DNA of 38,087 nt from IMG/VR virus record IMGVR_UViG_2711768019_000014; one strand, given 5' to 3'. Source of the DNA: a virus. Its lineage: Duplodnaviria > Heunggongvirae > Uroviricota > Caudoviricetes. Both the position numbers and the translations under genes were made by a program. The notes under the pieces are model-generated. The model saw nothing but the letters and a program-made list of their open reading frames with translations, ran no database searches and was not told where the DNA came from. Each line of letters opens with the position of its first letter. The first letter of the stretch is position 1. Below are positions 1-34,072 of the stretch, piece after piece.

Positions 1-297
1 ACGGGCATCATCCTCCGTCATGGCACCGAGAAAATCATTCAGCGTACCGGGTCGGGAATCTTCATACACGGTGATGGTCCCGGCATGTGACGGCGGGAAT
101 CCTTCCACCAACAGAATAACGCTGTACTGACCGTACTCAACGTCCATGCTGTAACGCCCGGCTTCATCCGGATTTTCTGAGGCCAGCGTGTTCACCACCA
201 CCGTGGTGCTGTTACGTTTTGCTTTCAGCTGGATTGTGCAGTTCTGTACCGGTTTTCCTGTGCCGTCTTTCAGTACACCTGAAATCTTTACTGCCAT
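1..297 (-). CDS. stf: Side tail fibre protein, N-terminal 99 codons (3' part lies beyond the window start)
   Basis: Minus-strand ATG at 297..295 opens a frame running to position 1 without a stop (MAVKISGVLKDGTGKPVQNCTIQLKA...); position immediately after lom as in lambda; N-terminus recognised from memory as Stf-like. Confidence 0.75.
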   Translation of the reverse strand, partial: MAVKISGVLKDGTGKPVQNCTIQLKAKRNSTTVVVNTLASENPDEAGRYSMDVEYGQYSVILLVEGFPPSHAGTITVYEDSRPGTLNDFLGAMTEDDAR

Positions 298-4507: not shown

Positions 4508-5155
4508 TCAGCGACCAATCACCACAACCTGACCACCATCCCCTTCGTCTGCCGTGCTGATCTCCTGAGAAACCACACGTGACCCCACGCGCATTTCACC
4601 GTACAGAACAGGCAGAACATTGCCCTGGGCAACCATGTTATCCAGTGAGGAGAAATAGGTGTTCTGTTTGCCGTTATCTGTACTGGCTGCCGTGGGCGTC
4701 CTGGCTTTCGGTGCCAGCATCTGCGCCACTCCGCCCAGGATCATACTGGCCCCTGCCGCATACATGCCCGATACAGCCGCGGCCCCCAGCCAGCCCACAG
4801 GGTTCCACCATGCCACCGCAATCAGCGCCGCCCCAAGCACCACCTGAAACACACCGCCACTTTTAGCTCCCGCCAGACGCGGCACGATGTGGATCACGGC
4901 ACCATTTGCCAGCGGCTCATTAAGACGGGCAGATAATTCATTTTCGCCTGCATCACGCCCGGCAATGCGCACCTGATACCAGCCCTCATTCAGTTTCTGA
5001 CGAAACGCCGGGATCTGCATGGCCAGCGCCCGGATGGCTTCGGACCCCGTTTTCACTCGAAGGTCGATGCGGCGGCCAAATCGTTGTAAATCCCCGTAAA
5101 GGCAGATGCGTGCCATGCCCGGTGACGCCAGAGGGAGTGTGTGCGTCGCTGCCAT
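4508..5155 (-). CDS. I: Tail assembly protein I
   Basis: 215 aa; sits between K and J and overlaps K by about 100 nt, as lambda I does; ubiquitin-like N-terminal region followed by a hydrophobic segment. Confidence 0.8.
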   Translation of the reverse strand: MAATHTLPLASPGMARICLYGDLQRFGRRIDLRVKTGSEAIRALAMQIPAFRQKLNEGWYQVRIAGRDAGENELSARLNEPLANGAVIHIVPRLAGAKSGGVFQVVLGAALIAVAWWNPVGWLGAAAVSGMYAAGASMILGGVAQMLAPKARTPTAASTDNGKQNTYFSSLDNMVAQGNVLPVLYGEMRVGSRVVSQEISTADEGDGGQVVVIGR

Positions 5156-24250: not shown

Positions 24251-25003
24251 CTATCTTGTCACTTTTCTCAATTGCGATTCAGCATACGCTTCTTCCTGCC
24301 AGCACTTTGTAACCAGTTTATTAATAACGTCTGCATATCCTTTGTACCACTGATAATCCGTCAGGTCCGGTACCAGTTTCTGGACATGATGCCGCGCCAG
24401 TGTGGTTGGTAAACGGCTAAACCGGTTGCCATTGCAACGCCCACAAATCTTATAAACAGGCACACCATGAAGCCGGGTTCTTTTTTCATCCAGGACAATA
24501 CCTTTACCCTTACACCCTCTGCACGCTGTGCTGACTTCTCCCTTACCATGGCAATGCTGACATAGTTCCTTCACCCACTCTTCCTTGATAACAGATTCCC
24601 CGCTTCTGGAGTGTTTCACCACTTCGCGCAATACATTATGAAATCCAGTACCAGCACAATGCTCACAGCGAGCCTTACTTGCCGCAGACCTGGAATAATC
24701 AGCAAAGGCAAAATTCACAAGGTAAGGGATGATCTGTAACCGGGTTTCTTCACTCAATTTGTTCAATGTCGGGTTATCCAGTGCCATCGCGTAATTGAGC
24801 AGACCTTCAATCGCAAATTGAGGATCCTGAACACCAACTTTTGCCAGGAATAAGGCAAACCCAAGCGGTGCTTTCGACTGCACCATCCCCTGCGCAGCCA
24901 TCACATCCGTAATCGTTAAACCACCTGAGCCTGTCGCCGGTGCGTCATCGCTCAATTTTGGAGATTTTGGGGAGTAATATTTTGGTAAGGCTTCAAGGTT
25001 CAT
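24251..25003 (-). CDS. Late-gene antiterminator Q-like protein with four CxxC zinc-binding motifs
   Basis: 250 aa; CEHCAGTG, CQHCHGKG, CRGCKGKG, CGRCNGNR; assigned mainly from its position directly upstream of the promoter-terminator pair; GGAG Shine-Dalgarno. Confidence 0.55.
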   Translation of the reverse strand: MNLEALPKYYSPKSPKLSDDAPATGSGGLTITDVMAAQGMVQSKAPLGFALFLAKVGVQDPQFAIEGLLNYAMALDNPTLNKLSEETRLQIIPYLVNFAFADYSRSAASKARCEHCAGTGFHNVLREVVKHSRSGESVIKEEWVKELCQHCHGKGEVSTACRGCKGKGIVLDEKRTRLHGVPVYKICGRCNGNRFSRLPTTLARHHVQKLVPDLTDYQWYKGYADVINKLVTKCWQEEAYAESQLRKVTR

Positions 25004-25016
25004 GCTCGTTCTCCAC

Positions 25017-26012
25017 TTACGCCAATACGCCAATTGCCAGCGCACGATCGATAAAACGAAATATCAGCTCCAGCTGGGAGCCATACTTCTCTTCAAATGC
25101 CACGGTATCCGCATGCAGCTCGTCGTGATGCTTTCTGCACAAAGGCAACACAAAGAGGTCATGCGCTTTTGTACCCATTCCACCCTGACCGTGGCCTATC
25201 AGGTGGTGGGGATCATCAGCAGGCTTTCCACAACATGCACACGGCTGTGTCTTAACCCAGCGCGTGTACTTTTCATTAACCCAGCGGCGGCGTTTTGGGC
25301 GTAACATAAAAGACTCCGGCGACTCCGGATCCACTTTCAGCGCCAGCACCTTTTTTGCCTTATCCTGGATGATGCTGGTGGCAGGAACCGAAGGCACAAG
25401 GTCACTTTCCCGGGTGACAGACGGCACAACAGGCTTTGGTAATCTCAGTGCCTTACGGGCTGCACTTTCCGGTAAGGCATCCGCCAGGTCATTACGAATC
25501 AGCCACCAGCACAGTTCCGGCATTGTCACAACGTGACTATCATCAAAACCGAGATCCCGACGCACAACAGACAACACCCAGCGGGCACAGTTATCCGTTG
25601 CCATTGATTCCAGCCGTTCCGTGAACTGATCGCGCAGCTGGTTATCGCAGTGCCAGCACAGACGGATTGCGCCCGGAGCGTGTCGCATTGTGGTCATGTT
25701 CTCGCTGTGCCAGTCGGAATGAGGCCACTGGCAGCCTTTTTCACGAAGTAACCAGCTTTCAAGACATTCCACGCCACCAGCACGACGGATCACTGCCTCA
25801 TTGCGGAACACGGCCCGAACGGCAGGATCATCCGCCAGCGGTTGTGATGCCGCCGGAACGGCACCACTGGCGAAAGATGAATAACGTTCCGGCTCAGGCT
25901 CCAGCAGAACACGCCCCTGCATAAACAGGGGCATCAGCTCTGAACCTGGCCTGAACAATACGATCCCCATACGCGGGGCAATTTCAGGGGTCAGTAGTGC
26001 TCTCACGGTCAC
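25017..26012 (-). CDS. DUF968-like prophage protein (YdfU-like) with a C-terminal Cys/His motif
   Basis: 331 aa; C-terminal CACCGKPADDPHHLIGHGQGGMGTKAHDLFVLPLCRKHHDELH; family assignment is from memory. Confidence 0.55.
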   Translation of the reverse strand: MTVRALLTPEIAPRMGIVLFRPGSELMPLFMQGRVLLEPEPERYSSFASGAVPAASQPLADDPAVRAVFRNEAVIRRAGGVECLESWLLREKGCQWPHSDWHSENMTTMRHAPGAIRLCWHCDNQLRDQFTERLESMATDNCARWVLSVVRRDLGFDDSHVVTMPELCWWLIRNDLADALPESAARKALRLPKPVVPSVTRESDLVPSVPATSIIQDKAKKVLALKVDPESPESFMLRPKRRRWVNEKYTRWVKTQPCACCGKPADDPHHLIGHGQGGMGTKAHDLFVLPLCRKHHDELHADTVAFEEKYGSQLELIFRFIDRALAIGVLA

Positions 26013-29514: not shown

Positions 29515-29747
29515 GCTGCACCTCCGAGATGCTTCATGTTTTTTCCGGAGCGAAAGGCTATAAGCGGCATACTGACGCGGTAATTACGGCCCAGCGGTTC
29601 ACAAATCACCTTCTGGCATTCACGGTCAACCAGGCTAACACGTAGAACATGCCCTGCAGGCGTGGTGTACCACTGCCCAACTGTAGGAATTGATATTTTT
29701 TTACGCTGAAGCAAACGGCAAATATTGAGGATCAACGGATTAAGCAT
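29511..29747 (-). CDS. Hypothetical protein (78 aa)
   Basis: ORF with 4-nt overlaps to both neighbours, suggesting translational coupling within the early-right operon. Confidence 0.4.
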   Translation of the reverse strand: MLNPLILNICRLLQRKKISIPTVGQWYTTPAGHVLRVSLVDRECQKVICEPLGRNYRVSMPLIAFRSGKNMKHLGGAA

Positions 29748-30576
29748 GACGATGCCCTCCGCTGATATTCAGGAGACGGTGAATATGAAAATTAGCCTTA
29801 TCCGCCAGACGAATACGTTCAGCTTGCAAGTTAAGAAGGGTTTCTACCAGAACCTGATGTGCCTGCGGATCCGAAAGAGTTACCTTGCGCAGAGCACGTA
29901 GTGCAGTTGTTACATAACTGAGTTTATGTAAGTCTTCATCATTCAGACGAGTGAGGGCTGGGACAGTAGCCATGATGGCAGCCTCCTTGATCGGTGAAAT
30001 ACTTCCACCACCGGAAACGCCAATTTCGCTGGTGGTGAACTGAACGGGGTTGGCGTAACCGGTGATCAAGGAAACCGGCGCATCTTTCGATGCCCCCGCC
30101 CAGCCCACCATAACTTTGATGTGAGCAAATGCGGACGATAAAAAAGACGCTGGCGCGTCATATATCGCCTTGATCAATTCCAGGACGCCAATCCCGGCAC
30201 CCGCTTTATAAGGTGCCTGAACAGTGTAACGTCCCGGAATGGCAGAATCAATGTGCTGGTGGTCCTTCACACTCAACAAAATCACGCCTGAATTTCCACA
30301 AAGGACTAAAGCACTCATGCGGGTAGTCTTTGCGAAGATAGATAACGCGCTGTGTTTCTGGCTCCCAACGAATAACATGAACATAAAGTCCTCTTCCGTC
30401 ACGAAACCAGCGGTTAAGTTCCTGCACAACTCGCCCCCCACAGTCAGGTAAAGTTCTCTGTGGTTACTTACAGCCAGGTGATTTGGTAATCTGCATTCAT
30501 GCCGTAACAACAGGTGTTCAGCGACGCTGACCACCAGCTGTTGCGACAAACGGTTATTTGCCGTTAAACTGTTCAT
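29740..30576 (-). CDS. Hypothetical early protein (278 aa)
   Basis: Long ORF coupled to its neighbours; no motif recognised. Confidence 0.5.
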   Translation of the reverse strand: MNSLTANNRLSQQLVVSVAEHLLLRHECRLPNHLAVSNHRELYLTVGGELCRNLTAGFVTEEDFMFMLFVGSQKHSALSIFAKTTRMSALVLCGNSGVILLSVKDHQHIDSAIPGRYTVQAPYKAGAGIGVLELIKAIYDAPASFLSSAFAHIKVMVGWAGASKDAPVSLITGYANPVQFTTSEIGVSGGGSISPIKEAAIMATVPALTRLNDEDLHKLSYVTTALRALRKVTLSDPQAHQVLVETLLNLQAERIRLADKANFHIHRLLNISGGHRHA

Positions 30577-31458: not shown

Positions 31459-32133
31459 ATGAAAACAGTCCATGACATCCGGCGGTCTAACGCCAGAAAA
31501 CTGAGAGATGGTGTTGGCGGGAATTCTTCCTTTGCCACCATGATTGATCGCGAGCCAACCCAGACCAGCAGGTTTATGGGAGATGGTGCAACTAAAAATA
31601 TCGGTGACAGCATGGCACGGCACATCGAAAAATGTTTCGACCTGCCTGTCGGATGGCTTGATCAAGAACACCAGACAACGAACATCACAAAAAAACCTGA
31701 CGTTTCAATCACTAACAAACAAATAACGTTAGTCCCTGTCATATCATGGGTACAGGCCGGAGCATGGAAAGAAGTTGGCTATTCTGAGGTTGATTTGAGC
31801 ACAGCAGAAACTTATCCCTGCCCTGTACCCTGTGGCGAAATGACTTATATCTTGCGGGTGATTGGTGATTCAATGATTGATGAGTACCGCCCGGGAGACA
31901 TGATTTTTGTTGATCCTGAAGTCCCTGCCTGCCACGGTGACGACGTTATTGCATTGATGCACGATACAGGCGAAACCACCTTCAAGCGGTTGATAGAAGA
32001 TGGAACACAGCGTTATCTCAAAGCATTAAACCCAAACTGGCCTGAGCCTTACATTAAGATTAACGGTAATTGCTCTATAATTGGTACAGTGATTTTCTCA
32101 GGAAAACCAAGAAGATACATAATAAAGGCCTAA
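31459..32133 (+). CDS. CI-type prophage repressor with S24 (LexA-like) autopeptidase domain
   Basis: 224 aa; N-terminal HTH region; Ala-Gly cleavage site (VQAGAW); Ser nucleophile in VIGDSM and downstream Lys (TFKRL). Confidence 0.85.
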   Translation: MKTVHDIRRSNARKLRDGVGGNSSFATMIDREPTQTSRFMGDGATKNIGDSMARHIEKCFDLPVGWLDQEHQTTNITKKPDVSITNKQITLVPVISWVQAGAWKEVGYSEVDLSTAETYPCPVPCGEMTYILRVIGDSMIDEYRPGDMIFVDPEVPACHGDDVIALMHDTGETTFKRLIEDGTQRYLKALNPNWPEPYIKINGNCSIIGTVIFSGKPRRYIIKA

Positions 32134-32145
32134 TCAATATTTATA

Positions 32146-32167
32146 ACCTGCTTCGGCAGGTTTTTTT
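32146..32167 (+). terminator. Rho-independent terminator after the repressor gene
   Basis: acctgc-ttcg-gcaggt followed by T7. Confidence 0.6.
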
Positions 32168-32171
32168 ATAC

Positions 32172-32200
32172 TTGACAATGTACCTTTGGGATACATAATG
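32172..32200 (+). promoter_or_regulatory. Strong sigma70-like promoter (pL-like) overlapped by an operator-like palindrome
   Basis: TTGACA-N16-CATAAT; the spacer contains TGTACC-tttg-GGATACA, matching the operator motif in the cro/repressor intergenic region. Confidence 0.55.
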
Positions 32201-32682
32201 TATCTAAAAGAAACACAGCACAGGCAAGATTAAACAAAATTTGGTTGTAACACGGCGTATGGCACATGCGTCGTTAGCGGTCTGGGGACGTTAAAGGGGA
32301 CAATCCACTCCTTGCTCGGGCAAACAAACCAGGTAGCCGGAATGTGCAAGTCAATGATGATGCTGATAAGACGCCTAACCAGCGTGGCGATTCGGTTTGA
32401 CGCCTGGGAAGAGACCAGGGTGCAACGATGAGGACATTTATGGAACCGCGACAAAGTGTGGTGCCGTAACTGGCTAAGTGCTCTCAGCGTTGTGGTGAAT
32501 GCGCAGGCTGATGCGCGAAAGACATTGCAGCTAATGCGGAAAAGAGCTGTTCGGCGGGGCAATTAAACGCCCGTGAGAGTCTGAAATAACCGCAAGCCGG
32601 AGATCAGCACCGGTCACCACAACAGCCACTGCTTTGGCGGTACCAGTTTGTACACTTGCTTCCGGCTGGTACCGCTCTTTTT
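32201..32682 (+). ncRNA. Candidate noncoding leader RNA or regulatory leader (no credible ORF), ending at a terminator-like hairpin
   Basis: About 480 nt between the promoter and a GCGGTACCAG-N19-CTGGTACCGC hairpin followed by TCTTTTT; only very short ORFs without Shine-Dalgarno sequences. Confidence 0.3.
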
Positions 32683-32771
32683 ACAAAACAGAGAAGAGCA
32701 TCACCGGACGACGGGCTCATAACCAAATCCATCCGGGCGGCTGCCACCGCAGGTGTTCTTCTCTGTTTTGT
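32683..32771 (+). promoter_or_regulatory. Long perfect hairpin in the leader (15-bp stem ACAAAACAGAGAAGA / TCTTCTCTGTTTTGT, about 59-nt loop)
   Basis: Read directly; about 45 nt upstream of the first plus-strand gene; overlaps a boxA-like CGCTCTTTTTACAA. Confidence 0.5.
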
Positions 32772-32819
32772 GGAGAAACCAACCGACCTTGCAGGGTCGA
32801 TATGATTAGGAGCAGCAAA

Positions 32820-33182
32820 ATGGCTAGCGAACGCAGTACTGATGTGCAGGCATTTATTGGGGAGCTGGACGGCGGCGTATTTGAAACCAAAATCGGCGCA
32901 GTTCTCAGTGAAGTCGCTTCCGGTGTGATGAACACGAAAACCAAAGGTAAGGTCTCACTCAACCTGGAAATCGAACCATTTGATGAGAACCGTGTGAAAA
33001 TCAAACACAAACTCTCATATGTTCGCCCGACTAACCGCGGGAAAATTTCCGAAGAAGACACCACCGAAACGCCGATGTATGTCAATCGCGGTGGTCGCCT
33101 GACTATTCTGCAGGAAGACCAGGGACAATTACTGACTCTTGCCGGTGAACCTGACGGAAAACTCCGCGCAGCAGGTCATTAA
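32820..33182 (+). CDS. YfdP-like prophage protein (120 aa)
   Basis: AGGAG 8 nt upstream of the ATG; recognised from memory as resembling CPS-53 YfdP. Confidence 0.6.
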   Translation: MASERSTDVQAFIGELDGGVFETKIGAVLSEVASGVMNTKTKGKVSLNLEIEPFDENRVKIKHKLSYVRPTNRGKISEEDTTETPMYVNRGGRLTILQEDQGQLLTLAGEPDGKLRAAGH

Positions 33183-33247: not shown

Positions 33248-34072
33248 ATGTCTCAGAACTTAGACGCAACCGCAATTAATCAAATCCATGCCCTTATTTC
33301 TGCTCAGGGTGTTAATGAAATTATCAGTAAGATTGGTGCCGATGCTGTGGCATTGCCTGAGAATTTCCGCATTCATGATCTGGAAAAATTAAATTTAAAT
33401 CGTTTCCGTTTCCGTGGTGCGCTTTCCACTGCCAGCATCGATGACTTTACTCGTTATTCTAAAGATCTTGCAGATGAAGGCACCCGCTGCTTTATCGATG
33501 CTGATAATATGCGTGCCGTCAGTGTTCTTAACCTGGGTACTATTGATGAACCAGGTCACGCAGATAACACCGCCACTCTCAAACTGAAAAAGACAGCTCC
33601 GTTCTCTGCTCTGTTGTCTGTTAATGGCGAGCGTAACTCCCAGAAGTCACTGGCAGAATGGATTGAAGACTGGGCCGACTACCTTGTGGGCTTTGATGCT
33701 AATGGTGACGCCATTCAGGCAACCAAAGCGGCTGCGGCGATCCGTAAAATCACAATTGAAGCGAACCAGACCGCTGATTTTGAAGATAATGACTTCAGCG
33801 GCAAACGCTCCCTGATGGAGTCTGTCGAAGCGAAGACCAAAGACATTATGCCAGTGGCATTTGAATTTAAATGCGTTCCGTTTGAAGGTCTGAAAGAACG
33901 TCCGTTTAAATTACGCCTCAGCATTATCACTGGCGATCGTCCTGTACTGGTTCTGCGCATTATTCAGCTGGAAGCGGTACAGGAAGAAATGGCTAACGAA
34001 TTTCGTGATCTGCTTGTTGAGAAATTCAAAGACAGCAAAGTAGAAACCTTTATTGGTACTTTCACCGCCTGA
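33248..34072 (+). CDS. YfdQ-like prophage protein (DUF2303-like, 274 aa)
   Basis: GAGGA Shine-Dalgarno; size and sequence recalled as YfdQ-like. Confidence 0.65.

What the first reader, a model, noticed from the sequence alone, without database searches (positions are those of the whole stretch)
32172..32819. Strong promoter followed by a roughly 620-nt ORF-free, highly structured leader (candidate ncRNA or antitermination element)
A near-consensus promoter (TTGACA-N16-CATAAT) is followed by about 620 nt with no credible ORF, unusual in a compact phage genome. The leader contains a terminator-like hairpin (GCGGTACCAG-N19-CTGGTACCGC plus TCTTTTT) that would release a roughly 480-nt RNA, then a 15-bp perfect stem with a 59-nt loop. 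The sequence CGCTCTTTTTACAA between the two resembles boxA of nut and rrn antitermination sites. No N-like antiterminator gene is evident in the window, so this could be a put-like or nut-like RNA element, an RNase III-regulated leader, or a prophage sRNA.
Basis: partly seen in the sequence, partly recalled or inferred. Interest (0 to 1): 0.55.

Follow-up and report, generated by a model that had tools for sequence, protein, structure and literature searches.

The report
Modular noncoding RNA leader of prophage
The 620-base gene-free stretch after the prophage's early-left promoter is a chain of conserved folded RNA modules, including a previously undescribed RNA scaffold that sits where tRNA genes sit in many unrelated phages and is nearly invariant across bacterial classes.

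Summary
A near-consensus promoter (32172-32199) carrying an operator-like palindrome is followed by about 615 nt with no conserved ORF, up to the yfdP start at 32820. Both hairpins are real and covary in related phages.

The leader is a mosaic of RNA modules that recur in other phages:
- Module A, 32243-32424.
- A "clamp" hairpin, 32422-32493.
- Motif B, 32489-32626.
- A hairpin plus U5, 32637-32682.
- A second clamp of 23 bp, 32680-32774.

Motif B is a closing helix around two hairpins with complementary loops and a hypervariable insert. It is absent from Rfam 15. I found 140 distinct versions; the insert falls into 87 unrelated clusters. Its exact 25-mer occurs in 50 species genomes, from Enterobacterales to Betaproteobacteria. 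Motif B lies in pL leaders, in Q-to-lysis late leaders, and in tRNA arrays, always on the same strand as the tRNAs. In one phage family a real tRNA-Arg occupies its slot.

The boxA resemblance is not conserved. No N gene is present and there is no similarity to put.

Best reading: a stable-RNA (tRNA-type) cassette placed between pL and yfdP, ended by a leaky terminator. Its function is inferred, not shown.

The parts
32145..32169 (+). Intrinsic terminator ending the repressor gene (hairpin 32145-32162 plus a T run)
   Evidence: 7-bp stem, 4-nt loop, T run. Annotated as a terminator in phage Ayreon.
32172..32199 (+). Early-left (pL-type) sigma-70 promoter, TTGACA-16-CATAAT. Inferred transcription start about 32206.
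   Evidence: 11 of 12 positions. Annotated as a promoter in Ayreon. Lies downstream of the repressor gene and on its strand, as pL does in lambda (inference).
32179..32204 (.). Operator-like palindromes: TGTACCTTTGGGATACA (32179-32195) and GATACATAATGTATC (32190-32204), overlapping the spacer, the -10 and the start site
   Evidence: the TGTACC-N5-GGTACA pattern occurs only here and twice in the repressor/cro intergenic region (31375, 31425). The second palindrome was read from the sequence. Repressor binding is inferred.
32243..32424 (+). Module A: conserved non-coding block. It is shared with the P1 ban operon, directly after tRNA-Ile, and with O157 typing phage 9, upstream of tRNA-Arg.
   Evidence: at least 120 IMG/VR contigs carry its exact 24-mer; two hairpins covary. 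Folding energy is not exceptional (z = -0.17). ORFs are not conserved.
32422..32493 (+). Clamp hairpin 1: 5' arm GCAACGAUGAGGAC, 3' arm GUGCUCUCAGCGUUGU, enclosing a 37-nt cargo
   Evidence: The MFE picks this stem (z = -2.4). The same arms enclose different cargos in other contigs. The consensus CACAACAGGUAAGRGCA...UGCUCUUUCCGUUGUG is seen.
32489..32626 (+). Motif B. Closing helix 32490-32497 / 32615-32622. Hairpin 1 at 32501-32516 (loop GGCUGA). Variable cargo at 32517-32595. Hairpin 2 at 32596-32614 (loop AGAUCAGCA). The two loops are complementary.
   Evidence: Covariance model R1 scores 75.9 bits, E = 6e-17. On 27 diverse copies 96.8% of cells pair, against at most 54.5% when slid, and 5 pairs change on both sides. 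140 distinct copies. Not in Rfam.
32637..32682 (+). Conserved hairpin (32637-32675) plus U tract (32676-32682): intrinsic-terminator-like, probably leaky
   Evidence: 5 of 10 stem pairs are compensatory across five phages, and CUUUUUACA is invariant. z = -4.4. The same hairpin plus CUUUUUACA follows the real tRNA-Arg in L005. The loop is 19 nt, longer than in canonical terminators.
32680..32774 (+). Clamp hairpin 2: a 23-bp stem (32680-32702 / 32752-32774) enclosing a conserved 49-nt interior
   Evidence: -49.8 kcal/mol, z = -7.4. 94.8% of cells paired with 3 compensatory pairs, and the G-U pairs fit only the + strand RNA.
32784..32819 (+). Small hairpin (32784-32799), then the Shine-Dalgarno GGAG (32809-32812) of yfdP
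   Evidence: fold. The hairpin is kept with a different sequence in ST64B, phiNP and Kp4866-6.
32820..33182 (+). yfdP, the first gene of the early-left operon, followed by the DUF2303 gene yfdQ at 33248-34072

Best explanation
The region is the untranslated leader of the repressor-controlled early-left operon of an SfV/cdtI/mEp460-type lambdoid prophage. It is a stable-RNA cassette rather than a simple 5' UTR.

Transcription from 32172-32199 produces, in order:
1. Module A.
2. A clamp hairpin.
3. Motif B, a closing helix stacked on a hairpin, with a second hairpin docked to it by a loop-loop helix and a replaceable insert between the two.
4. A conserved hairpin plus U5.
5. A second, 23-bp clamp directly before the yfdP ribosome-binding site.

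Motif B occupies the slot that a real tRNA occupies in homologous cassettes. It is also a member of phage tRNA arrays.

I infer three things from this:
- The first 480 nt or so are made and matured like a tRNA-operon transcript. The 3' end would form at the hairpin/U5, and the clamp and B boundaries would be cut by host tRNA/rRNA-type nucleases such as RNase P, RNase E or RNase III. The products would be nuclease-resistant small RNAs whose scaffold is constant and whose cargo varies.
- The hairpin/U5 is leaky.
- Read-through transcripts carry clamp 2 as the 5' structure of the yfdP mRNA.

Shown: the non-coding status, the module boundaries, the conserved secondary structures, the distribution and the tRNA-slot equivalence.

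Inferred: processing, stability, termination efficiency and any trans function.
For: Non-coding status:
- PGAP annotates nothing in the leader.
- No ORF survives in homologues.

Structure:
- Whole leader z = -4.66.
- Motif B covaries.
- The hairpin/U5 and clamp 2 covary.
- The single substitutions in B's closing helix are G-U-preserving transitions on the + strand.

Modularity:
- Separate BLAST blocks match P1, typing phage 9, T1-like, Ackermannviridae and SfV/ST64B phages.
- The interior of B is swapped for an unrelated element between identical flanks in Ayreon-type phages.

tRNA link:
- In L005 the order is module A, clamp, real tRNA-Arg, trailer GAAUCACG, then hairpin plus CUUUUUACA. The window has B in the tRNA position.
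- 31 of 31 tRNAs near B are on its strand, in 18 of 172 loci.
- In Massilia a tRNA-Gly ends 1 nt before B.
- Some B cargos contain a tRNA-like cloverleaf.

Constraint:
- The 3' half, which was not used for retrieval, is 92% identical to consensus across 140 copies.
- The cargos form 87 unrelated clusters with GC from 25 to 64%.
- The exact 25-mer occurs in 50 species genomes across several proteobacterial orders.

Context:
- B lies in ORF-free gaps with a median length of 736 nt and is co-oriented with neighbouring genes about 3 to 1.
- It lies in pL leaders and in Q-to-lysis leaders.
- Related phages (SfV, ST64B, phiNP, Kp4866-6, Ayreon) all keep a B-like element directly upstream of the hairpin/U5 and clamp 2.
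Against: - No transcript or processing data are available, and K-12 lacks the leader.
- B is not recognised as a tRNA by ARAGORN or the Rfam tRNA model.
- B lacks T-loop and D-loop consensus sequences.
- Its closing helix is often 8 to 9 bp, and only 10 of 99 copies have NCCA after it. Recognition by RNase P is therefore far from assured.
- The loop-loop helix has no double compensatory change, because loop 1 is invariant.
- Module A folds no better than shuffled sequence.
- The hairpin/U5 has a 19-nt loop, so its strength as a terminator is unknown.
- Only about 10% of B copies are near tRNAs.
Confidence: 0.45

Rival explanations
1. Cis-acting processive antitermination. The nascent leader RNA (B and/or module A) binds the elongating RNA polymerase or recruits Nus factors. 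This would let transcription pass the hairpin/U5 and Rho-dependent sites in a phage that has no N, as HK022 put or rrn boxA elements do.
For: - The element sits just downstream of pL and directly upstream of a conserved terminator-like hairpin in five related phages.
- No N gene is present.
- SfV carries a further annotated terminator in the same leader.
- Near-invariance across bacterial classes fits binding to a universally conserved machine such as RNA polymerase.
- Minimal B is about 67 nt, close to the size of put.
- The clamp 3' arm carries UGCUCUUU, the core of rrn boxA (the boxA consensus is from my own knowledge).
Against: - There is no sequence or architectural similarity to put. Put is a V-shaped pair of stem-loops with no closing helix.
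- No copy lies downstream of pR.
- Most B copies lie downstream of tR' in Q-dependent late leaders, where Q already provides antitermination.
- B also lies inside tRNA arrays of lytic phages.
- In typing phage 9 the same hairpin/U5 follows a plain tRNA.
Confidence: 0.15
2. Trans-acting decoy or regulator. B is a nuclease-resistant display scaffold, and the variable cargo (79 nt here) acts on host or defence RNAs or proteins as a sponge, mimic or antisense RNA.
For: - The scaffold is constant while the cargo is hypervariable (87 clusters).
- One cargo family copies 40 nt of 16S rRNA at 85% identity, and others contain tRNA-like cloverleaves.
- Terminators often follow B within 13 to 66 nt, as they do for sRNA genes.
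- Prophage late leaders are known to encode anti-sRNAs and sRNAs (Pas sRNA preprint).
Against: - No target was identified for the window's cargo.
- rRNA resemblance is limited to one cargo family.
- pL is presumably repressed in lysogens, so any effect would be limited to infection or induction.
- No Hfq or ProQ features were examined.
Confidence: 0.2
3. An ordinary regulatory 5' UTR. The clamps are RNase III sites, as in the lambda N leader, that tune the stability or translation of yfdP. The other modules are passengers with no function of their own.
For: - Clamp 2 is a 23 to 25-bp duplex 45 nt upstream of the yfdP start and is conserved with covariation.
- Heavy structure would also protect 615 nt of untranslated RNA from Rho (inference).
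Against: - This does not explain the sequence-level invariance of B and module A across unrelated phages and bacterial classes.
- It does not explain their occurrence away from any yfdP gene.
Confidence: 0.12
4. DNA-level elements. The conserved arms (GTTGTG/CACAAC words and hairpins) are recombination linkers or ends of a small mobile element, and the RNA folds are incidental.
For: - The interiors are exchanged between identical flanks.
- Every module boundary carries a GUUGUG or CACAAC word.
- The mosaic distribution is very wide.
Against: - Substitutions preserve G-U pairs that would be A-C mismatches on the other strand.
- Orientation follows transcription: 31 of 31 tRNAs and about 3 to 1 for genes.
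- The core is identical although cargo GC content is adapted to hosts from 25 to 64% GC.
- No transposase or target duplication was seen.
Confidence: 0.06
5. The region encodes one or more small proteins.
For: - Phage annotators called 2 or 3 hypothetical ORFs here in mEp460, Ayreon and cdtI.
- The frame upstream of yfdP is open from 32634.
Against: - The ORFs called differ between annotators, and PGAP calls none.
- All six candidate ORFs are broken by frameshifting indels or stops in real homologues.
- The conserved positions follow base-pairing, not codons.
Confidence: 0.02

Closest known systems
HK022 putL/putR antiterminator RNAs
   Same: A cis-encoded RNA of about 70 nt directly downstream of pL, in a lambdoid phage lacking N and upstream of terminators. 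Put needs no phage protein (PMC9378689).
   Different: - Put is two stem-loops in a V shape with a triplex and no closing helix or loop-loop helix.
- No sequence similarity was found.
- B has no copy after pR.
- B is also found in late leaders and tRNA arrays.
Lambda nutL (boxA/boxB) and the RNase III site of the N leader
   Same: The position between pL and the first early-left gene. A long duplex lies just upstream of the first gene's ribosome-binding site (my own knowledge of lambda).
   Different: - There is no N gene.
- The boxA-like string is not conserved.
- There is no boxB-type 15-nt hairpin.
- The clamps enclose variable cargo and recur in many phages.
tRNA genes and phage tRNA arrays
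   Same: - B sits in the same slot as tRNA-Arg in a homologous cassette.
- It is co-oriented with tRNAs and can abut them.
- Its layout is a closing helix stacked on a 5-bp hairpin, a short linker to a second hairpin, and interaction between the two loops.
   Different: - B is not detected by ARAGORN or Rfam RF00005.
- It has no anticodon arm and no T-loop or D-loop consensus.
- The loop contact is Watson-Crick.
- NCCA follows only 10% of copies.
T4 stable RNAs species 1 and 2 (rnaC, rnaD)
   Same: Small stable RNAs of unknown function encoded at the end of a phage tRNA cluster (annotation).
   Different: Model R1 finds no match. T4 rnaC has a canonical T arm and B does not.
Purine-riboswitch-type three-way junction
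   Same: A closing helix plus two hairpins held by a loop-loop helix, often followed by a terminator-like hairpin.
   Different: - The junction is poorly conserved and tolerates inserts of 12 to more than 160 nt.
- B occurs inside tRNA arrays.
- No riboswitch family matches it in Rfam.
P1/P7 C4 and P4 CI RNAs (RNase P-processed phage RNAs)
   Same: Phage regulatory RNAs cut out of longer early transcripts by a tRNA-processing enzyme (my own knowledge). A C4 homologue is present elsewhere in this window.
   Different: C4 is a different family, located at 30028-30115 on the minus strand. Processing of B has not been shown.

Membership tests
HK022 put RNA | Two-stem-loop RNA of about 70 nt with put-like sequence, present downstream of both pL and pR | tested here: not met
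   The HK022 pL-pR region contains no B-like motif. Model R1 finds one copy in the window, after pL only. The architecture differs from that described in PMC9378689.
HK022 put RNA | Makes RNA polymerase terminator-resistant through the beta' zinc-binding domain | not testable with these tools
   This needs read-through assays in rpoC mutants.
nut site / boxA-dependent antitermination | Conserved boxA (CGCUCUUUA / UGCUCUUUAACAA) in single-stranded RNA | tested here: not met
   The window's CGCUCUUUUUACAA reads GCCCUUUUU, GACCUUUUU or GUCCUUUUU in relatives. The UGCUCUUU of the clamp arms is base-paired.
nut site / boxA-dependent antitermination | boxB hairpin plus an N-family protein gene downstream | tested here: not met
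   The early-left genes are yfdP, a DUF2303 gene, an unknown gene and a PrtN-like gene. No N family matched.
tRNA (RF00005) | Cloverleaf recognised by tRNA models, with T-loop and D-loop consensus | tested here: not met
   ARAGORN finds 0 genes in the window. No tRNA hit at E up to 10 in 31900-33100.
tRNA (RF00005) | Position and orientation in tRNA arrays; equivalence to a tRNA slot | tested here: met
   31 of 31 neighbouring tRNAs are on the same strand. tRNA-Arg replaces B between the same flanks in L005.
tRNA (RF00005) | Discriminator base plus CCA after the acceptor helix | tested here: inconclusive
   NCCA follows 10 of 99 copies, against about 1.5 expected by chance. The window has ACAG.
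Intrinsic terminator | G+C-rich hairpin immediately followed by a U tract | tested here: inconclusive
   The 10 to 13-bp stem covaries and U5 is invariant. The loop is 19 nt here and up to 41 nt in ST64B, so the consensus scan does not call it. Efficiency is unknown.
RNase III processing stem | About two turns of double-stranded RNA | tested here: met
   Clamp 2 has 23 consecutive pairs, at -49.8 kcal/mol.
RNase III processing stem | Cleavage by RNase III | not testable with these tools
   This needs an rnc mutant or an in vitro assay.
Any Rfam 15 family | Match at the gathering score, or a suggestive E-value | tested here: not met
   Searches found only C4 and IsrK elsewhere in the window, and tRNAs plus int-alpA in related loci.
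T4 rnaC/rnaD stable RNAs | Homology to T4 species 1 or species 2 RNA | tested here: not met
   R1 with filters off finds nothing in the T4 tRNA region.

The most novel reading that the evidence does not exclude
Motif B may be a new class of phage RNA: a universal, nuclease-resistant scaffold read by a host machine conserved across Proteobacteria, such as RNase P or another tRNA-handling enzyme, or RNA polymerase. Phages of many families would use it to fold, protect or deliver interchangeable RNA cargos, including rRNA- and tRNA-like decoys. That would make it a natural counterpart of the engineered tRNA scaffold. The clamp hairpins would act as the punctuation of such non-coding RNA operons.
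Probability: 0.3. Interest if true: 0.85.

Novelty: new variant of a known kind. Interest (0 to 1): 0.7.

Why it matters
About half of complete E. coli genomes carry at least part of this leader. Its central motif recurs in temperate and lytic phages and in prophages of several bacterial orders, yet it is unannotated and absent from Rfam.

If the modules are processed stable RNAs, phage early and late leaders are non-coding RNA operons rather than spacers. That would add a layer to phage-host interaction through decoys, sponges and processing signals.

If instead B acts on RNA polymerase, it would be a second, far more widespread protein-independent antitermination RNA after put.

Either way, the invariant scaffold with a free insert is a ready-made design for expressing stable RNAs in bacteria. 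It is also a marker for annotating phage regulatory regions.

Tried and rejected
- **Rfam.** I searched the whole window at gathering score, the region at E up to 10, and 17 related loci. Nothing matched the leader.
- **tRNA or tmRNA in the window.** None found.
- **HK022 put.** No similar motif.
- **phi80 M3 RNA as a possible old name for B.** M3 is the oop homologue, and the phi80 late leader lacks B.
- **T4 rnaC/rnaD.** No homology.
- **rRNA mimicry as a general explanation.** Only three short matches to 23S appeared (best a 13-mer, E = 0.04), plus one cargo family resembling 16S.
- **K-12 CPS-53 as a source of published transcript data.** The leader is deleted there.
- **Literature.** String searches for the motif gave 0 papers. 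Searches on yfdP, ST64B sRNAs, the P1 ban operon, and tRNA-like or lambdoid terms gave nothing relevant. The Pas sRNA preprint concerns other late-region sRNAs. One 2026 preprint on mining non-coding elements could not be opened.
- **Regex census of clamp hairpins.** The pattern was too strict and matched both strands, so I did not use it.
- **Fuzzy-regex scan for divergent B copies.** It timed out and I replaced it with the covariance model.
- **Weak R1 hit at window 65-201 on the minus strand.** It lies in coding sequence and is spurious.
- **Hammerhead and riboswitch readings of B.** Rejected because the junction strands lack conserved core sequence, inserts are tolerated, and Rfam gives no match.
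Full report
**Setting.** The window is an SfV/cdtI/mEp460-type lambdoid prophage of E. coli. The 701 bases around the finding are 100% identical in many E. coli chromosomes, and part of the stretch matches in 2664 of 5426 complete genomes.

The local gene order is as follows:
- A LexA-family S24 repressor at 31459-32133 on the + strand.
- cro, a cII-like gene, an Ash-family gene and replication genes on the minus strand.
- A Q antiterminator at 24251-25045 on the minus strand.
- On the + strand after the repressor: a terminator (32145-32162), the promoter, the gene-free stretch, then yfdP (32820-33182), a DUF2303 gene (yfdQ), an unknown gene and a PrtN-like gene.

This is the position of pL and the early-left operon in lambda. 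No N-like gene is present.

**Checking the observation.** The promoter TTGACA-16-CATAAT (32172-32199) is the best sigma-70 match in 3 kb. Its spacer carries TGTACCTTTGGGATACA. This palindrome type is otherwise found only twice, both in the repressor/cro intergenic region. A perfect palindrome, GATACATAATGTATC, overlaps the -10 element. The promoter is therefore very probably repressor-controlled.

RefSeq annotates no gene between 32134 and 32819. Phage annotators placed inconsistent small ORFs there. All six ORFs of 36 to 110 codons are interrupted by frameshifting indels or stops in real homologues.

The leader folds better than all shuffles (z = -4.66). The terminator-like hairpin is at 32637-32675 with UCUUUUU after it (z = -4.4). 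The second stem extends to 23 consecutive pairs at 32680-32702 / 32752-32774 (z = -7.4).

**The leader is a mosaic.** BLAST against phage genomes splits the region into blocks with different relatives.

*Module A (32243-32424).* It is 79-82% identical to two other sequences:
- Non-coding DNA in the C1-repressed ban operon of P1, starting directly after tRNA-Ile.
- DNA directly upstream of a tRNA-Arg in O157 typing phage 9.

Its exact 24-mer is in at least 120 IMG/VR contigs. Three sequence families exist. Two of its hairpins covary, but its overall folding energy is unremarkable (z = -0.17).

*Clamp hairpin 1 (32422-32493).* Its arms follow a consensus seen in many phages: CACAAC-AGGUAAGRGCA ... 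UGCUCUUUCC-GUUGUG. These arms enclose unrelated cargos.

*Motif B (32489-32626).* Described below.

*Module C (from 32635).* This block is shared with SfV, SfIV, SfII, ST64B, phiNP and a Klebsiella phage. It consists of three parts:
- The hairpin plus an invariant CUUUUUACA.
- A second clamp.
- A small hairpin before the Shine-Dalgarno sequence.

On the five-phage alignment, 92.5% of cells pair, against at most 55% with slid partners. Eight pairs change on both sides, and several G-U pairs fit only the + strand RNA. All these phages keep 700 to 1000 nt of ORF-poor sequence between the repressor gene and the yfdP homologue.

**Motif B.** Its layout, 5' to 3', is:
- 5' strand of the closing helix, uGUGGUG.
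- Linker AAU.
- Hairpin 1: GCGCA-GGCUGA-UGCGC.
- The insert.
- Hairpin 2: GCCGG-AGAUCAGCA-CCGGC.
- 3' strand of the closing helix, CACCACa, with no linker before it.

Loop 1 (GCUGAU) is complementary to loop 2 (AUCAGC).

An exact-25-mer scan returned at least 120 viral contigs. On 27 diverse copies, 96.8% of cells pair, against at most 54.5% when slid. Hairpin 2 has three compensatory pairs: GUCGG/CCGAC, GCAGG/CCUGC and GUUGG/CCAAC. Single changes in the closing helix are transitions that keep G-U pairs.

The loop-loop helix is 99% pairable. It has no double change, because loop 1 is invariant, so it remains an inference.

Across 140 distinct copies:
- The 3' half, which was not used for retrieval, is 92% identical to consensus.
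- The insert ranges from 12 to 162 nt.
- The inserts fall into 87 unrelated clusters.
- Insert GC content spans 25 to 64%.

The covariance model finds exactly one copy in the window (75.9 bits). It also finds a divergent sister family directly upstream of module C in ST64B, SfV, Kp4866-6 and Ayreon, and in P1. The P1 copy has a compensated closing helix, GUUGCGGUG/CACCGCAAC.

The exact 25-mer occurs in 50 species-representative genomes. These include many Enterobacterales, plus Aeromonas, Marinobacterium, Moraxellaceae, Lysobacterales, and Betaproteobacteria (Janthinobacterium, Massilia, Undibacterium, Xenophilus). In these genomes the 3' half is conserved too, and the neighbouring genes where identifiable look like prophage genes.

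Nothing in Rfam 15 matches. A literature string search for the motif found no paper.

**Context of B.**
- About 60 loci place it between a Q antiterminator gene and the lysis cassette, downstream of the first late terminator.
- About 20 loci, including the window, place it between the repressor gene and yfdP.
- In 18 of 172 loci it lies within tRNA arrays, and all 31 tRNAs are on its strand. Some abut it.

In typing phage 9 the same module A and clamp are followed by a real tRNA-Arg where the window has B. After that tRNA come a GAAUCACG trailer and a hairpin plus CUUUUUACA, just as after B. B is therefore interchangeable with a tRNA inside one conserved cassette.

B is nevertheless not a tRNA by any model. 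NCCA follows it in only 10 of 99 copies.

**Interpretation.** The data show a non-coding, RNA-level, modular cassette. How it works is inferred.

I favour (0.45) a stable-RNA operon reading. In this reading, pL transcripts are matured like tRNA-operon transcripts. They end partly at the hairpin/U5 and are cut at clamp and B boundaries. B acts as a stable scaffold for its cargo, and clamp 2 forms the 5' structure of the read-through yfdP mRNA.

The rivals are:
- A put-like or Nus-like cis antiterminator (0.15). It is attractive because there is no N gene and a conserved terminator-like hairpin follows B. It is weakened by B's frequent location in Q-served late leaders and tRNA arrays, and by the lack of any likeness to put.
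- A trans-acting decoy or sponge (0.2). This overlaps with the favoured model.
- An ordinary RNase III-tuned 5' UTR (0.12).
- DNA-level recombination or mobile-element arms (0.06).
- Small proteins (0.02).

**Novelty.** Long structured phage leaders, phage stable RNAs in tRNA clusters (T4 species 1 and 2) and RNase P-processed phage RNAs are known kinds. The specific modules are not described in the libraries I could search. This applies above all to motif B, with its cross-class invariance and free insert. I therefore file the finding as a new variant of a known kind. There is a substantial chance (0.3) that B is a new class of scaffold RNA.

Noticed in passing
window 30028-30216 (minus strand): Rfam C4 antisense RNA (30028-30115, 82 bits) and IsrK (30140-30216, 64 bits) lie just upstream of the Ash-family gene at 29740-30576. 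This looks like a P1/P7 immI-like RNA control module inside the early-right operon.
   Followed up: partly
L085, L066, L075, L088 (motif B cargo): One family of motif-B inserts is 85% identical over 40 nt to E. coli 16S rRNA at about positions 243-282. It could be an rRNA-fragment mimic carried in the scaffold.
   Followed up: partly
L113 and L253 (cargo); L242 around position 4560: Some B inserts contain a complete tRNA-like cloverleaf. In a Massilia genome a tRNA-Gly ends 1 nt before B, and a tRNA-Pro follows about 60 nt after it.
   Followed up: partly
window 32459-32471: The cargo of clamp 1 contains UGGUGCCGUAACU, identical to a 13-mer of 23S rRNA (about 1680-1692). Two further short matches fall in the same 160-nt part of 23S. 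With E between 0.04 and 2.7 these may be chance.
   Followed up: partly
window 24250-23440 (minus strand): The late leader after Q contains a PR'-like promoter, a tR'-like terminator (about 24146-24120), a lipoprotein-like moron ORF (23971-23546) and a second terminator (about 23470-23440). It contains no B or clamp module.
   Followed up: partly
window 32244, 32424, 32489, 32615, 32683, 32765: Every module boundary in the leader carries a GUUGUG or CACAAC word, or a close variant. In arrays elsewhere, the 3' strand of one B can serve as the 5' arm of the next clamp, so alternative pairings are possible.
   Followed up: no
clamp 3' arms, e.g. L007-L010 around position 1501; window 32478-32485: The clamp 3' arm usually reads UGCUCUUU, the core of the rrn boxA. 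The window has UGCUCUCA. The arm is base-paired, so the meaning of this resemblance is unclear.
   Followed up: no
L240 (E. coli K-12 CPS-53, yfdO-yfdP intergenic region): K-12 keeps yfdP but only 20 nt of the leader. The upstream sequence is replaced by unrelated DNA with short GAC/TTTTGA-type repeats.
   Followed up: no
L238 (SfV) 629-653 and 1236-1268: SfV has an extra ORF (orf33) and a further annotated terminator between the repressor gene and its B-like element. Early-left transcription there must pass at least two or three terminator-like sites.
   Followed up: no
L051 264-330 (minus strand): An Rfam int-alpA RNA hit (43.7 bits) occurs in one of the viral contigs that carries B.
   Followed up: no
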